DNA of 64,000 bases from Thalia democratica (taxonomy: Eukaryota): assembly GCA_965202585.1 (NCBI GenBank), contig OZ241826.1, forward strand, positions 15,314,001-15,378,000, written 5' to 3'. Position 1 is the stretch's first letter; each line of letters begins with the position of its first letter. Positions 51,001-63,000 of the stretch are shown in pieces. Made by a program: the position numbers.

Positions 51001-54000
51001 CCTTAAAAGGTATTTAAGTTTTAGAAACAATACATTTAAAAAAAGATCTTATCTTTACTGCAATACATTCAATGCTGTTAAAAATACATATTTAAAGAAT
51101 ATATAATACATTATTTATTTAGATGTGATAAATAGGACTTAAGTAAAATTTACATTTAGTTCTAAACAAAATAAAATTTTATTTTTAAAGTATAACTAAA
51201 TCTAATAAAAGACTGTAATTAAATTAAAAATAAACTCATAAACTAACCATGGTATTTTACCAGAAAAGGTGTCAATATTGCTAAAAATACTTACAACAAA
51301 AAATTAACAGTTTTTTTAAGCTAGCGTTTTTATCTTTGTTTCATATTTGTTTAGTATGATTTCAATATTTTTGAAAGGTTTTAAACAAACTTTTACTACA
51401 TACAAAACTTATTTGTTTTTTCTTTTTCAAATCAAAACAGTTGCTTTAAAAATAAATTCATATCATAAACACAGTAGTTTTCGGATTTTTGAACTGACAG
51501 TTTCACTCTAGTTTTAATAACTAACTTAATTAATTAGTTTTTTAAATTAACTTCTTATTTAGTTTGTAGTGAAATACAAGTAGCTTTTAAAAATTTGTTA
51601 CACCTTGAAACTATAATACACACTTTCTTAGTTTGTGGTATACAGTTTCTTAAAATTAAACAAAATTTATAATACAATTACTTGCTTATGGAAAATATCA
51701 AACCGTTATTGTTATTTGCTGACAGTCTTTTTTTGTTTACAACCATTTTAAAATATTATCTTAAAACAAATAAATTTTTGGTGACCCAAAATTTTTTATT
51801 GCTTACTTTGTCTCTCAAATTGTTAATATAAATACATTTACTAGATTATAAATTATAAATTAGTGTTAATTTTTGATGTTTTTACTACTAAATTTAGTTT
51901 ATTAGTGTGTTTTTTAAGTTAATAGTTTTTAAAAGTTTTGGTTTCAAACTAAATAAAAATACTTGAGGAAATAAAAGTCTAAAAACAGTTACTACTTCTG
52001 TCATTAAAGACCAAAGTTATTCTTTAAGTAAGCAATTCAAAAGAAGTATATGTTAAAATATTAGAAAATAAAATGTGCAAAGTAAAGAAAAATTGTTTTA
52101 AAAATAATCTACAGAGTAAGTTAATACTTATGGTGATATGTTTTTATACGTTAAAAATAGTTTATGGAATAGAACTAAAAAAAAACAAGTTAAAGTACTT
52201 AAATTAGTTAGGTATTTAATTAAACCCTTGGAAAAACTACTTTTTGCAACTGATTTCAAATCAAATAACTTTTCTACAAAACTAGACATTTTAAATATGA
52301 ATTGTTAGATTTAAAATGTATTTTATACCTATGTTACTTACAAAAAAAAGCAGGTTAAAAAAAGTACAGCTAAAGTGTGTAAAACGCTAATTGCTGTTGA
52401 AAATATCTTGGGTAATAATCTAGGAGCTAAAGTGTGTAAACATCTAAAAATCGGTTAAAAAGAGTTAAAACTAATTTATGAGCAAACGCAATGGAAAAGT
52501 CTTTAAAGCAGCTTTTACCAAAAAACAAAGATATATTTTAACTATTTAGTACTGTTGTTTATAATAACTTCATTTTGAATTAAATAAATATTTACTTTTT
52601 AGTAAGTTGAAAATTTGTTTGTAATGCAATATTATCCGTTGTAAAATTTAATTGTTTCTTTTTTCTACAACAAGGTTGATTTATTAGAAGCAAAATGTTC
52701 TGTATATTTCAAGTTGTATTGCAGAAATAGCTAAATATAAAAAGCAAGCTCAGCAGTTGTCTAAAAAGTTCAAAATCATTTAACTTTCTACTGTTGGTGA
52801 AGTAGCTAGCAGTTTTACGTTTATAAACGCAATTTTAGTTTTCTGACCGTCGGGTTCCATAGTGTAGCGGTTATCACGTCTGCTTTACACGCAAAAGGTC
52901 GCAGGTTCGAGCCCCGCTGGAACCTTTTGTAAAAAGAAACTTTAAGATTATCTTCTACACATTTGTAATACATCAATTAGTATTTAAGATTGATACCTAG
53001 TTGATACCAAAAACTAAATTTTTATTTGAATAGGGTAATTGGTTCTGTGAAAGCTGTTAATTTTCTTTAAAATTTATTTACTTTGAACATAATTTTAAAT
53101 CTACTAACAAGCCATAGTTTGTTACTTTATTGCACAATACTAACTTATGTTATCAACTTTAAAACGCTATGTTTTTCTTTTGTTTAAAAAAATTAGTAAA
53201 TATATCACTTACAATAATAAAATCACACCGGAACAAACAAAAAATATGTTCTCATTAGAATTTAAATGAATTTAAATTTAATGGCTCTGACATTCTGAGT
53301 TTTAGCGAACGTTATAACCGCTTCACTATGAAAGCTTGCAAAAATTTTAACTTTTTAGAGCTTATAAACCTCAACTTTATAAGTGTGCAAAGACTTTGAA
53401 AAATAAATAGCTATCTTTTTAAAATGCTATTATACGTTCGTATTTTTTAACAAGTTTCTAATTTTTGTTTAATTTTTACAAGCTTATTAAAAACACTTTG
53501 AAAAAATTTAAACCGAAACTTGAGTGATAATTAACTAATGTTATTAGTGGCATTGATATGGGACACGTTCAAAATTCCCCCGCGTACAAAATCCATCCGA
53601 TCAAAATCCATCAAGTCCAATTCGAGAACCGCTTACCGATTGCGGGTAAGGGTTAGGGGTACACTGATAGTGAAAATATATGCAAAATAAACAAAAAAAA
53701 TGCAAAAAAAATATAGAATAAATTAATAAATAAATAAAATGTTTAAAGATCGAGTTTATTTTGAACGCGGGTGGATTTTGAATGGGAGGATTTGGATAGT
53801 ATACCGTTCATGTACTATATACTTTTTTCACTTTTAAACTAACTTTTTTATAAGGATACAACTGTGTAACATGCTTTCTACTACAATGTGATTATTTCAG
53901 CTTTAGCTAAAGTCTTTATTGGAAGTTTTTATTTCATAAATATTGTTTTAAACTCAGCTACTAATTAAAGTAAATACATAAAATCACTAACCTTTAGTGT

Positions 54001-60000: not shown

Positions 60001-63000
60001 ATGTTCTGTAGTGTAGCGGTCATCACGTTCGCACAGCAGGCGAAAAGTCTCCGGTTCGAGCCCGGGCGAAAAAACTTTTAAGCAGAAAATTTAAAAATTC
60101 TGCTGTTCAAATTGTTGAATGAAAATTCCAAGGTAAATTATCAAAATTATTGTTTAATTATCTATATATATTGTTAAAGGTATATCATTTAATAGATATA
60201 AAATAAAAACCTTACTCAAGAAAGTCGCAAGAAAGCAATAGCATTTTATAAACAAAACATATTTTTTAAACTTAATAACAAACAAAAAACTACTTGCACA
60301 ACATATTTTAAATACATTTAAGTTTATATTATTGAAAAAAATATATAGGACTAAAGACTGCATAAAACTTTACAAGCTCTACTTAAAACGATATTAATTC
60401 GAATAAAACCTTAGTTATCAAAAAGGTTCCAGCGGGGCTCGAACCCGCGACCTTCTGCGTGTAAAGCAGACGTGATAACCGCTACACTATGGAACCCGAC
60501 GATAGAGCGGCTGTAACTGCAATTATAAACATAAAACAGCTTGCTACTTCACCAAGAGTAGAAAGTTGAATGAGTTTGTACTTTTTATTCTCAACTGCTG
60601 AGTTTGAATTTTTGTTCAAATTTTCCAGCAAAATAACTTTAAATATCAACGGCAGTATTTTTTAATTTAAAACTGAAAATTAATATTTTATAAAATGACT
60701 TCTTAAACAACTGTAGACTATAAATGGAGTGATATTAATACAAACTCTTTTTATTTTCGTGTTTATTAAGGCTTTTTAAAGTCTATTAACAACTTGTATC
60801 TTTTTTTTCTATTCGACAACAAGTTTTTAAATAAATAAGCAATTTTATTAATAATGCTGTAACGATAGGTCTACCAGTATGTGTTTTATTAAAGCTTTAA
60901 ACTTTCACCTCTTACTATAACTCTATCATACTTCTTGTAGCTGTTCTACCTTTATACAAAGTGTTTGAAAACTTATGAGGAAATTACTTTTAAAGCCGTG
61001 CTATATGTATTAACGCGTTTTAAAATTTCTAAGAAAGTCAAGTCAAGAAAGACGAGTGAAAAAATTTTAACCGTCAAGTTTAAGTTTAGGTCATTCACAT
61101 TATTTTTTGTAAAACAAAAACAAAATCAAAGTAACAGTTCAACAATAAAAACTAAGGACTTAGTATGCAAAACTTTTTTGTTTAATCTTCTTGTTAATAT
61201 CTTAATTAATTTCCACAAAGAGTAAAAGCTAAGTTCATTACAAACAAAAGCTAAATCCGTTTAGTACATTCAAAAACGTGTTTGATATAAATACAGCTGA
61301 TAAATGTTTCCTAACAAACAAACCTTTAGGGTCAATGTTGCAATAGAACGATAAAAATAGCTTTTAAAGCCGAGATTTCGGGCTAATTGTTTCAAATAGT
61401 AAACAAAACAAAACAAACATTCGAAAAGGAGAATTTTATATTTAAACACAGCGTTTTTATTTGCGGAGTGACACAGATGAAGCTGATGTAGTAAACATTT
61501 CATTCCAGCTTGAATATTTCAGTCTTTTTATTTTTGTGTGTTTCAAAGTCTCTATGCTATGAGCTATTTTGTTTTTGCTCCGATTATTTTTGTTTTTCTT
61601 ACAGGAGTTGGATTTTTCGCAACGTTAGTTTTTGTTTATGTTTAAGTTTTGTGAACTATATCGAATAAATAGGTTTTTTTTTTCTTAAGATTTGTAGCCT
61701 GGTGAGTTAGTTTTGTTTACAACTGTAGTGCAACTAAGTTTAAATTAAACTTTTATTTGTATTCTGCACTATATTAACTTATTTGTTTTTAAAAACTTTA
61801 TACAGCATTTTTTATTTAAAACGTATTTAAAACGTTAATATTTTTGCGTAACTTTTGAGTTTACTCTTTTGTTTGTGAACAAAAAGAAAAAGCTTGGTTC
61901 ATCATTTATTTTAAGTTTTAATTGCTATTTTAAACATACATCTGTAGAAGTAACAGATTTGTTTTTTGAACTTAAAAGTTGTTAATTAATATTACACTTA
62001 ATATTTTAAAAAACAAATTCATTGCTTGAATTTAAAATAAATTGTGCGTGCATATATCAAGTATAAGTAGTGTGCTAAAACTGTATTGAATTTTAATTTA
62101 CTGTTTACAATTTACTATTTATTTACTTGGCTGTTTTTTAAACTTTTTAACAAAATCATCTGTAAATGTTTTGTTGTTACCTTTTACGCTTACTTTTTTG
62201 TATGTAAACAACAAAAGGTAAAACCTTACTTAGATACTTGTTTCAGTTTGAGATGCTATTTAAAGTATCTTTATGTAACAGTAACAGTTACTTTTTTCAA
62301 TGTAAAATTAACTCATATTATAATTTAAATGTGTATAATATTTGTTAAAGTTTAAATACCTTGTCGCGCGTGAAAGTATCACGTTCAAGTTGTTTGCTAA
62401 AATTTTACATTTACAAACTTGAAATTTTGTTAGTTGCAGCTTCAAGGTTAGTATTTTGCATTACTAAAAAGTACACTGCTAGTAGTGTTTTTACGTAGGT
62501 TTTATTATCTAAGTTTGTTATCTTTGGTAATGTAAACATAAATGAATAAATGAAACAAACACTTGTTTTTTAGAAAACTAAAACCTAAACCATTAATTTT
62601 AAAAGTTTGTAAAGTTAATTAAAAAAATTTAACTAGCTCCCTTAGAATTAGGGTAACTAAAAACTAATGTTAGAATATCATTGAAAAAATTAAGGTTTGT
62701 TAAAAATAGCAACGTTATAAATCGTTTTGTTATTTAGCAGCTATAGATGAAGTTATGTCCATAAAGATACTTTTCAAGACTTAAAAAGTGTAAACTATAA
62801 GCCTTATACTTAAATGTCTAAAAACTATCATTTTCAAACAGTTATGGTTGGAGTTACGCCCATGGGGACATTGTAAAGCCACCATTATGGCCATATGTTA
62901 GTGACACAGGAGACTTTGAACCAGAAAGTTGTATTTTTACGTTCCTTTTAAATCTAGCTGCTGTATTTGTGGCAGCTACAATGTACCTCTTCTACAAGTG

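What the first reader, a model, noticed from the sequence alone, without database searches (positions are those of the whole stretch)
52700..60650. Hidden ~8-kb ancient palindrome revealed by mirrored tRNAs and exons
Four independent mirror pairs give centres of about 56.7 kb (tRNA pairs) and about 57.0 kb (exon pairs). The left arm is longer, partly explained by the MITE at 53557 and the duplicated last exon. Decay is reciprocal: the better tRNA-Val(TAC) is on the right arm, the intact protein gene on the left. This is a compact record of post-duplication partitioning that is invisible to ORF calling.
Basis: seen in the sequence. Interest (0 to 1): 0.65.

Follow-up and report, generated by a model that had tools for sequence, protein, structure and literature searches.

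The report
Old inverted duplication carrying tRNA-Val genes
An old, heavily diverged mirror-image duplication of about 3 kb, split by a 2-kb single-copy middle, copied two tRNA genes and the tail end of a small membrane-protein gene; it is real, but an ordinary kind of genome rearrangement.

Summary
Window 52694-56038 and 57998-60656 are two inverted arms around a single-copy spacer, 56039-57997. nhmmer finds mirror matches at four anchors: tRNA-Val(TAC) with its flanks (E 3e-43), an inner tRNA-like relic (E 1e-5), and the exon 4 and exon 5 homologues (E 1e-5 to 6e-7). All lie in collinear order, with centres at 56669-56675 and 56998-57018.

The roughly 325-bp shift of centre comes almost wholly from a tandem duplication of about 650 bp found only in the left arm (54130-54800 / 54802-55451). 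It carries the short last exon.

Between the anchors there is only weak collinear similarity. It shows in 4 of 5 Smith-Waterman scoring schemes but not with nhmmer.

"Reciprocal decay" is not supported. The two tRNA-Val genes differ at 2 of 73 bases, where about 12-13 differences are expected if one copy had drifted. So both were kept, or converted. The right gene copy has no counterpart of exons 1-3 and was probably incomplete from birth.

Verdict: a real but ordinary old inverted segmental duplication with pseudogenisation. Synteny could not be tested. Interest is low.

The parts
52694..56038 (.). Left arm of the inverted duplication (3345 bp; includes later left-only insertions)
   Evidence: nhmmer and blastn mirror matches; weak mid-arm collinear alignment
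57998..60656 (.). Right arm of the inverted duplication (2659 bp)
56039..57997 (.). Single-copy spacer between the arms. Holds exons 1-3 of the left gene and local tandem repeats (56879-57100 ~ 57107-57323; 57552-57604 ~ 57729-57781).
   Evidence: No mirror similarity: local score 24.0 against shuffles 28.1 +/- 4.5; nhmmer --max found no mirror hit; direct repeats
52853..52925 (+). Left tRNA-Val(TAC), 55.4 bits, with two mismatched stem pairs
60424..60496 (-). Right tRNA-Val(TAC), 68.7 bits, all stems paired
52694..52852 (+). 5' flank of the left tRNA-Val, mirrored at 60497-60656. It is 76% identical overall, with an 86% block at 52762-52834 <-> 60515-60587, which is better kept than the rest of the arms.
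53263..53335 (-). Left inner tRNA-like relic; only the 5' half is recognisable
   Evidence: Alignment of the four tRNA-like copies; blastn 52855-52900 <-> 53333-53289
60002..60074 (+). Right inner tRNA-like gene, degenerate (32.0 bits). ARAGORN calls it Ala(AGC); it is 72-75% identical to the Val(TAC) genes.
53566..53786 (.). MITE-like element found only in the left arm. Its 25-nt terminal inverted repeats lie at 53568-53592 and 53758-53782.
   Evidence: 2 matches, 0 expected; no convincing second copy in the window
54130..55451 (.). Left-only head-to-tail tandem duplication with units 54130-54800 and 54802-55451. Each unit carries a copy of the short last exon.
   Evidence: scores 113 and 41 against shuffle maxima of 30 and 27; 74.6% identity over 331 columns
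54711..56735 (-). Left gene, a six-exon model read by eye. Exon 1 is 56667-56735, exon 2 56455-56485, exon 3 56285-56344, exon 4 55872-56009 and exon 5 55582-55715. The coding part of exon 6 is 55368-55409 (proximal copy) or 54711-54758 (distal copy). It encodes a signal-peptide-like start, a 4-Cys segment, one hydrophobic span and a short tail.
   Evidence: Three-frame reading, GT/AG sites and consistent phases. Relatives P0001 and P0002 cover exon 4 and P0004 covers exon 5. No Pfam family.
58028..58415 (+). Right gene remnant, comprising homologues of exons 4 and 5 only. It is broken: 2 in-frame stops or more, 1 frameshift, 2 of 4 conserved Cys lost, and no exons 1-3.
58639..58776 (+). Weak right-arm counterpart of the exon-6 acceptor region (single copy)
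   Evidence: score 27; 8 of 300 shuffles reach it

Best explanation
One old inverted segmental duplication. A stretch of roughly 2.7 kb was copied in reverse orientation about 2 kb away. The stretch ran from about 160 bp upstream of a tRNA-Val(TAC) gene, through a convergent tRNA-Val-like gene, to exons 6, 5 and 4 of a small single-pass membrane-protein gene. The copy landed beyond the gene's 5' end, so exons 1-3 and the upstream region remained as a single-copy spacer.

Inferred mechanism: a replication or repair error of the fold-back or template-switch type. Such errors characteristically leave a single-copy spacer between the inverted copies.

Later history, shown by comparing the arms:
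- Unconstrained DNA drifted to about 62-65% identity.
- The right gene fragment lacks a start, a signal peptide and a promoter, and became a pseudogene.
- Both tRNA-Val genes stayed nearly identical, because each carries its own internal Pol III promoter and was retained or converted.
- Both inner tRNA-like copies decayed.
- The left arm gained a tandem duplication of about 650 bp, which includes the last exon, and a MITE-like insertion.
For: - Four anchors are significant by nhmmer and lie in the same order and inverted orientation. blastn joins them into 740- and 489-column alignments.
- Spacing agrees. The difference of 661 nt between inter-anchor distances matches a left-only tandem duplication with units of 671 and 650 nt.
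- The distal exon-6 copy pairs with the right arm at centre about 56710, the tRNA offset. The proximal copy sits at the exon offset of about 57040.
- Weak collinear similarity exists between the anchors: score 80.5, with 0 of 300 shuffles and 0 of 112 real controls reaching it.
- Divergence of unconstrained parts is alike in the outer and inner modules. K2P is 0.47 between the tRNAs, 0.42 in the inner 5' flank, 0.52 in intron 4 and 0.55 in exon 5.
- Both inner tRNA-like copies share derived states against Val(TAC), so they predate the large duplication.
- There is no mirror similarity for 56008-56800 against 57200-58024 (z -0.9). None of the 3 probes for exons 1-3 exceeds shuffles, and nhmmer --max finds nothing.
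- The tRNA-Val copies differ at 2 of 73 positions.
- Exon 4 has K2P 0.27, about half of intron 4 at 0.52. That fits one constrained copy and one free copy.
- A spacer of 1959 bp is within the 766-70,466 bp range (median 3,428 bp) reported between the copies of human inverted duplications (PMC3907307, passages read).
Against: - The mid-arm similarity is weak. nhmmer misses it even with --max. One of 5 scoring schemes gives nothing, and with gap costs -3/-1, 5 of 300 shuffles and 7 of 112 real controls reach the score. Only 7 of 21 tiles fall in the expected band, against about 5 expected.
- "Incomplete from birth" is an argument from absence at about 35% background divergence. Exons 1-3 are only 69, 31 and 60 nt long, so later deletion or replacement of the right 5' part is not excluded.
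- The mechanism is inferred. Junction microhomology cannot be read at this divergence.
- The gene model was read by eye and not checked against transcripts. The joined-exon test was left out.
- No related genome was available for synteny.
Confidence: 0.62

Rival explanations
1. A whole-gene inverted duplication (a true palindrome with head-to-head complete genes) was followed by reciprocal decay. The right arm kept the good tRNA-Val and lost the gene. The left arm kept the gene, and its tRNA-Val is degenerating.
For: - The right tRNA-Val scores 68.7 bits against 55.4 for the left, which has two mismatched stem pairs.
- The right inner tRNA-like copy is also the better kept of its pair.
- The left gene is open and the right copy is broken.
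- The spacer holds local tandem repeats that could have overwritten a former right 5' part.
Against: - The two tRNA-Val copies differ at 2 of 73 positions. About 12-13 differences are expected if one had been unconstrained since the duplication (P 5e-5 to 3e-4).
- The left copy keeps an ARAGORN call and 55.4 bits, well above the Rfam cut-off of 29.
- There is no trace of exons 1-3 or their introns on the right, although non-coding mid-arm DNA still gives a weak signal.
Confidence: 0.25
2. Independent events. The tRNA module (about 700 bp) and the exon module (about 500 bp) were each duplicated or inserted separately, and their mirror arrangement is a coincidence.
For: - Strong similarity is confined to two modules.
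- nhmmer sees nothing between them.
- tRNA genes are often copied on their own (general knowledge, recalled).
Against: - Order and orientation are the same in both arms.
- Spacing agrees to within about 10-20 nt of 1.5 kb once the left-only tandem duplication is allowed for.
- The exon-6 region provides a fifth collinear anchor.
- The mid-arm alignment lies on the predicted anti-diagonal in 4 of 5 scoring schemes.
- Neutral divergence is similar in both modules.
Confidence: 0.07
3. Compositional artefact: chance mirror matches in AT-rich, low-complexity DNA plus two unrelated tRNA genes.
For: - Intergenic G+C is 0.21-0.28.
- blastn at word size 7 gives many noise hits of 30-51 bits with scattered centres.
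Against: - The outer module scores 169.75 against a shuffle maximum of 25.5 and a real-control maximum of 31.8.
- nhmmer E-values run down to 3e-43.
- The exon 4 peptide matches the right arm in tblastn at E 2e-8, and no other place in the window scores below E 0.1.
Confidence: 0.01

Closest known systems
Inverted duplications with a single-copy spacer, formed by fold-back or template switching. Sources: human germline cases in PMC3907307 (passages read); yeast and human models in PMC10622511 and PMC10766186 (search listing and abstract starts only).
   Same: Two copies lie in opposite orientation with a non-duplicated spacer of a few kb between them. Here the spacer is 1959 bp. The reported range is 766-70,466 bp with a median of 3,428 bp.
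   Different: Those cases are megabase-scale, recent and usually terminal, with an adjacent deletion. This one is interstitial, has arms of about 2.7-3.3 kb, is fixed in this assembly and has decayed to about 62-65% identity. No junction microhomology can be read.
Genomic palindromes that evolve in concert. Examples: human and ape sex-chromosome palindromes, 11 palindromic collinear blocks in Folsomia candida and 17 in Adineta vaga (PMC5490193, passages read), and mouse chr12 SD12A1 (PMC13688818, abstract start only).
   Same: Inverted arms flank a spacer and carry genes in mirror order.
   Different: Those arms hold whole genes, often several, and are kept alike by arm-to-arm gene conversion. 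Here the arms are small and diverged and the protein gene copy is partial. Only the tRNA-Val block stays alike (97% in the tRNA, 76% in its 5' flank).
Duplicate-gene fates: non-functionalisation, and reciprocal loss or subfunctionalisation (recalled general knowledge; no paper read here).
   Same: One copy of the protein gene is a pseudogene. The paired inner tRNA-like genes decay.
   Different: Complementary loss is not shown. Both arms keep tRNA-Val(TAC), and the right protein copy probably never had a 5' end.
Miniature inverted-repeat transposable elements (MITEs)
   Same: The element at 53566-53786 is about 220 bp, non-coding, has 25-nt terminal inverted repeats (22 of 25 matching) and is present in one arm only.
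   Different: No clear target-site duplication could be read from the sequence. No convincing second copy exists in the window: the best candidate, 47680-47930, has 116 of 261 columns identical and nhmmer E 0.24. The label stays provisional.

Membership tests
Inverted segmental duplication (palindrome with spacer) | Two stretches similar in reverse-complement orientation beyond chance | tested here: met
   nhmmer E 3e-43 to 1e-5 at four anchors; Smith-Waterman 169.75 against a shuffle maximum of 25.5
Inverted segmental duplication (palindrome with spacer) | Collinearity along the whole arms, that is, one anti-diagonal | tested here: inconclusive
   The anchors are collinear, and spacing agrees after allowing for the left-only tandem duplication. 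The mid-arm signal is weak: positive in 4 of 5 Smith-Waterman schemes, negative with nhmmer, and the tile test is not enriched (7 of 21 against about 5 expected).
Inverted segmental duplication (palindrome with spacer) | Single-copy spacer between the arms | tested here: met
   56039-57997 has no mirror partner
Concerted-evolution palindromes (sex-chromosome type) | Near-identical arms maintained by arm-to-arm gene conversion | tested here: not met
   Arm identity is 62-65% outside constrained parts. Only the tRNA-Val block is 97% identical, and selection on both copies explains that equally well.
Functional tRNA gene (both Val(TAC) copies) | Cloverleaf and score above the Rfam gathering cut-off, a readable anticodon, and a T run after the 3' end | tested here: met
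   68.7 and 55.4 bits against a cut-off of 29. ARAGORN reports Val(tac) for both. TTTT and TTTTT directly follow the genes (read). The left copy has two mismatched stem pairs. Expression was not testable.
Reciprocal loss / partitioning after duplication | Both copies complete at birth, with complementary losses afterwards | tested here: not met
   tRNA-Val is kept in both arms (2 of 73 differences). There is no sign that the right gene copy ever had exons 1-3.
MITE | Terminal inverted repeats | tested here: met
   53568-53592 and 53758-53782, with 0 matches expected by chance
MITE | Target-site duplication, and many copies in the genome | tested here: inconclusive
   No clear duplication at the ends (read). 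Only one copy in 64 kb. A genome-wide count was not possible with these tools.

The most novel reading that the evidence does not exclude
The tRNA-Val block is the only part of the arms that has stayed alike. The tRNA is 97% identical and a 73-nt upstream block is 86% identical, against about 62-65% elsewhere. It may be held together by continuing arm-to-arm gene conversion. Alternatively, selection may favour a mirror-image pair of Pol III genes, with a shared upstream element, that bracket the small membrane-protein locus, for example as paired chromatin boundaries. On that reading the decayed palindrome would be a functional bracket and not debris.
Probability: 0.08. Interest if true: 0.45.

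Novelty: new member of a known kind. Interest (0 to 1): 0.2.

Why it matters
The importance is modest.
- It is a clean worked example of how a small inverted duplication ages. The self-contained Pol III genes survive in both arms. A promoter-less gene fragment dies. Later tandem duplication and a transposon-like insertion shift the axis of symmetry.
- For annotation, the right-arm exon remnants (58028-58415) should not be called a gene.
- Both tRNA-Val(TAC) copies should be counted as candidate genes.
- The left gene probably ends in a short sixth exon that exists in two tandem copies.

Tried and rejected
- nhmmer with 400-bp tiles, and with long queries and --max, found no mirror hit for the mid-arm or for 56039-56800.
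- The outer flanks, 51700-52693 against 60657-61650, show no similarity. The arms therefore end at about 52694 and 60656.
- Probes for exons 1-3 against 56800-58040: 0 of 3 exceeded shuffles.
- Tandem Repeats Finder (longest period 500) reported none of the 650-, 227- or 177-bp repeats among its 16 rows.
- The bacterial promoter/terminator scan is not informative: 55 sites against 60.1 expected. Its one "terminator" hairpin upstream of the left tRNA-Val is not kept in the right arm (compared by eye).
- Family and structure searches gave nothing:
  - Pfam has no family for exon 4, exon 5 or the right exon-4 homologue. The only hit is a sub-threshold Sigma_reg_N match to the hydrophobic span.
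  - PDB has nothing below E 0.24 for exon 4.
  - The ESM Atlas has no usable hit for exon 5.
- Word-indexed protein search of exon 4 among longer proteins found none, although the exhaustive search then found P0001 and P0002.
- The taxon marker (C8/TIL exon, 36604-37197) returned one hit, 30% identical to a fish mucin-2-like protein. It is an AT-rich animal-type genome and I do not take it for human.
- A possible second MITE-like copy at 47680-47930 was rejected: 116 of 261 columns identical.
- The two exon-6 copies were checked for stronger conservation than their surroundings. By my hand count on the sequences, 28 of 39 coding nucleotides are identical, against 74.6% for the unit. This gives no evidence of constraint.
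- Two literature searches found no paper on a decayed tRNA-bearing inverted duplication of this kind. That is weak evidence that none is in print.
- Not done:
  - The joined-exon (spliced) protein was not assembled, searched or folded. Exons were searched one by one.
  - No structure was predicted, because single exons of 45-54 residues are too short to be useful.
  - Genome contigs holds only bacteria and archaea and was not scanned.
  - Paper supplements were not consulted.

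
Full report
**Setting.** The window has no N and is AT-rich, with G+C 0.21-0.39 per 2 kb. Positions 1 to about 44000 hold, on the minus strand, exons of a very large mucin-like gene. Its domains are VWD, C8, TIL, EGF-like and repeated F5/8 type C domains joined by Thr-rich stretches. The best outside match of one of its exons is only 30% identical, to a fish mucin-2-like protein. The source is therefore an animal-type genome from a poorly sampled lineage. I do not take it for human. The finding lies in the gene-poor, 21-28% G+C stretch downstream.

- ARAGORN and Rfam place tRNA-Val(TAC) at 52853-52925 (+, 55.4 bits) and at 60424-60496 (-, 68.7 bits). A degenerate tRNA-like gene lies at 60002-60074 (+, 32.0 bits; ARAGORN reads Ala(AGC)).
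- The mirror partner of the degenerate gene is a relic at 53263-53335 (-) that keeps only the 5' half.
- I tiled the left side in 400-bp pieces and searched the whole window with nhmmer. The only reverse-strand hits were:
  - 52694-52938 <-> 60656-60411 (E 2.9e-43)
  - 53301-53400 <-> 60036-59936 (E 1.1e-5)
  - 55571-55710 <-> 58426-58288 (E 1e-5)
  - 55615-55992 <-> 58383-58043 (E 5.8e-7)
  - 55920-56007 <-> 58115-58025 (E 1e-5)
- blastn with 7-base words merges them into two long alignments: 52704-53400 <-> 60646-59936 (740 columns, 64.9%) and 55554-56038 <-> 58442-57998 (489 columns, 61.8%).
- Against 100 dinucleotide shuffles and 54 real AT-rich control stretches, the outer module scores 169.75, against maxima of 25.5 and 31.8.

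**The stretch between the anchors.**
- A Smith-Waterman alignment with cheap gap extension gives L 53906-54880 <-> R 59602-58553, score 80.5. It lies on the predicted anti-diagonal. None of 300 shuffles (maximum 68.5) and none of 112 real controls (maximum 66.2) reach it.
- Of five scoring schemes, four put the best alignment on the same anti-diagonal. Between 0 and 5 of 300 shuffles, and between 0 and 7 of 112 real controls, reach those scores. The fifth scheme (mismatch -1.5) finds nothing.
- Against this, nhmmer sees no mid-arm similarity even with filters off.
- In a 200-bp tile test, 7 of 21 tiles had their best hit in the expected band, where about 5 are expected by chance.

Spacing is the stronger argument for one event. 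The anchors are 2170 nt apart on the left and 1509 nt apart on the right, a difference of 661 nt. The left arm alone contains a head-to-tail tandem duplication with units 54130-54800 (671 nt) and 54802-55451 (650 nt). The Smith-Waterman scores between the two units' halves are 113 and 41, against shuffle maxima of 30 and 27, and identity is 74.6%. The right arm has a single weak counterpart of the unit at 58639-58776 (score 27; 8 of 300 shuffles reach it). This duplication accounts for the shift of the centre from about 56.7 to about 57.0 kb.

The MITE-like element (53566-53786) is also found only on the left. Its 25-nt terminal repeats give 2 matches where 0 are expected. It must be balanced by other small indels.

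**Limits of the duplication.**
- Outside 52694 and 60656 there is no similarity.
- Inside, similarity stops about 30 bp upstream of exon 4, at 56038 / 57998.
- The 1959 bp in between have no mirror partner. The local score is 24.0 against shuffles at 28.1 +/- 4.5, and nhmmer --max finds no mirror hit.
- The structure is therefore an inverted repeat with a spacer, not a true palindrome. The spacer carries its own small tandem repeats, with periods of about 227 and 177 bp.

**The protein gene.**
- Reading the minus strand gives a six-exon model with GT/AG borders and consistent phases.
  - Exon 1 (56667-56735) begins with a hydrophobic, signal-peptide-like stretch.
  - Exons 2 and 3 are 56455-56485 and 56285-56344.
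  - Exon 4 (55872-56009) carries four Cys and N-glycosylation-type sites.
  - Exon 5 (55582-55715) carries a hydrophobic span of about 23 residues and a basic tail. It ends at a donor that is conserved in both arms.
  - Exon 6 is a 13-15-codon tail present in the two tandem copies.
- The model was read by eye. No tool predicted the introns.
- Exon 4 has two relatives in the exhaustive search: P0001 (85% identical, E 2.2e-9) and P0002 (77%, E 2e-5). Exon 5 has one: P0004 (76%, E 1.2e-11). All three are unspliced ORFs from unnamed short contigs.
- For exon 4 their similarity stops at the predicted donor. P0004 runs four residues past the exon 5 donor before it diverges (compared by eye). This supports the exons as real coding sequence.
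- No Pfam, PDB or Atlas family was found. The window holds no further copy.

**The right copy.** It consists of homologues of exons 4 and 5 only (58028-58415), plus the weak exon-6 region. It carries at least 2 in-frame stops and 1 frameshift, and has lost 2 of the 4 conserved Cys. Probes for exons 1-3 found nothing on the right (0 of 3 above shuffles).

**Was the decay reciprocal?** The arm comparison argues against it.
- Presumably unconstrained parts have K2P 0.42-0.55: between the tRNAs 0.47, the inner 5' flank 0.42, intron 4 0.52 and exon 5 0.55.
- Exon 4 has K2P 0.27, about half the neutral value. That is expected if one copy is constrained and the other is free.
- The two tRNA-Val genes differ at only 2 of 73 positions (K2P 0.03). 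If one had been free since the duplication, about 12-13 differences are expected, and 2 or fewer has probability 5e-5 to 3e-4.
- So both Val(TAC) genes have been conserved, or homogenised, for most of the time since the duplication. The two stem mismatches of the left copy are recent.
- The inner tRNA-like pair has decayed in both arms (K2P 0.33 with 26 gapped positions). Both copies share derived states against Val(TAC), so the inner copy predates the large duplication.
- The inner copy also shares about 30 nt of 3' flank with Val(TAC) (D2). It therefore arose by an earlier small DNA-level inverted duplication: the two genes are convergent and about 340 bp apart.

**Most likely history and mechanism.**
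- Shown: a single inverted duplication of about 2.7 kb with a 2-kb spacer, followed by neutral decay. The left arm then gained a tandem duplication and a MITE-like insertion. The right gene fragment became a pseudogene, and both tRNA-Val genes were retained.
- Inferred:
  - The copy arose by a fold-back or template-switch error. Single-copy spacers of 766-70,466 bp (median 3,428 bp) are the hallmark of such events in human cases (PMC3907307, passages read).
  - The left arm is the parent, because it is contiguous with exons 1-3.
  - The right gene copy was incomplete from the start.
- The tRNA genes survive because their promoters are internal (established knowledge of Pol III type 2 genes, recalled).

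**Comparison with what is known.** Inverted segmental duplications and palindromes are well known. Examples are the sex-chromosome palindromes with arm-to-arm conversion and the palindromic blocks in Folsomia candida and Adineta vaga (PMC5490193, passages read). Fold-back inverted duplications are covered by PMC3907307, and by PMC10622511 and PMC10766186 (listing only). This locus is a small, old, decayed member of that kind. It fails the concerted-evolution criterion everywhere except the tRNA-Val block. Two literature searches turned up nothing specific to such a tRNA-bearing relic.

**What stayed open.**
- Synteny with relatives, which is the decisive test.
- Transcript support for the gene model and for the use of the two exon-6 copies.
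- Expression of the two tRNA-Val genes.
- Genome-wide copy number of the MITE-like element.
- Whether the well-kept 5' flank of tRNA-Val reflects a promoter element or gene conversion. The flank is 76% identical overall, with an 86% block at 52762-52834 <-> 60515-60587.

Noticed in passing
window 1-44000 (- strand): Exons of a very large mucin-like gene. About ten near-identical exons of about 0.8-1 kb each encode a Thr-rich stretch plus an F5/8 type C domain (for example 9012-9965, 13556-14494, 19338-20276). VWD, C8, TIL and EGF-like exons lie at 34-44 kb. The best outside hit of one exon is only 30% identical, to a fish mucin-2-like protein.
   Followed up: partly
window 30370-30442 (+): An intact tRNA-Ala(TGC), 69.5 bits. 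It apparently sits inside an intron of the minus-strand mucin-like gene.
   Followed up: no
window 52762-52834 and 60515-60587: A 73-nt block 18-90 nt upstream of both tRNA-Val genes is 86% identical, far above the roughly 63% of neighbouring non-coding DNA. It contains a TATA-like TTTATAA. It could be an upstream Pol III control element or a gene-conversion tract. A hairpin predicted in the left copy is not kept in the right copy.
   Followed up: partly
window 56879-57323: A tandem duplication of about 227 bp lies almost exactly at the geometric centre of the inner anchors (about 57010). Each unit starts with a short AAGCTT-rich hairpin-like inverted repeat: 56878-56912, and 57089-57140 with 23-nt arms that are 78% complementary.
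   Followed up: partly
window 57552-57604 and 57729-57781: A 53-nt direct repeat, 81% identical and spaced 177 bp apart, lies in the right part of the spacer.
   Followed up: no
window 54711-54758 and 55368-55409 (- strand): The two tandem copies of the last exon both keep an open frame in the correct phase and a shared peptide pattern (G-I-[LV]-H-P-[FI]-[ND]-L). Their nucleotide identity (28 of 39, hand count) is no higher than that of the surrounding unit (74.6%), so constraint is not shown.
   Followed up: yes
proteins P0001, P0002, P0004 (unnamed short contigs): These are close relatives (76-85% identical) of exons 4 and 5 of the small membrane-protein gene. The broken right copy shares several states with P0001 that the left copy lacks. 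tblastn gives 67.6% identity to P0001 against 55% to the left exon. The left gene therefore changed after the duplication, or the duplication predates the split from P0001's source.
   Followed up: partly
window 47680-47930 (- strand): A faint resemblance to the MITE-like element of 53566-53786 (nhmmer E 0.24; 116 of 261 columns identical). It is not convincing as a second copy.
   Followed up: yes
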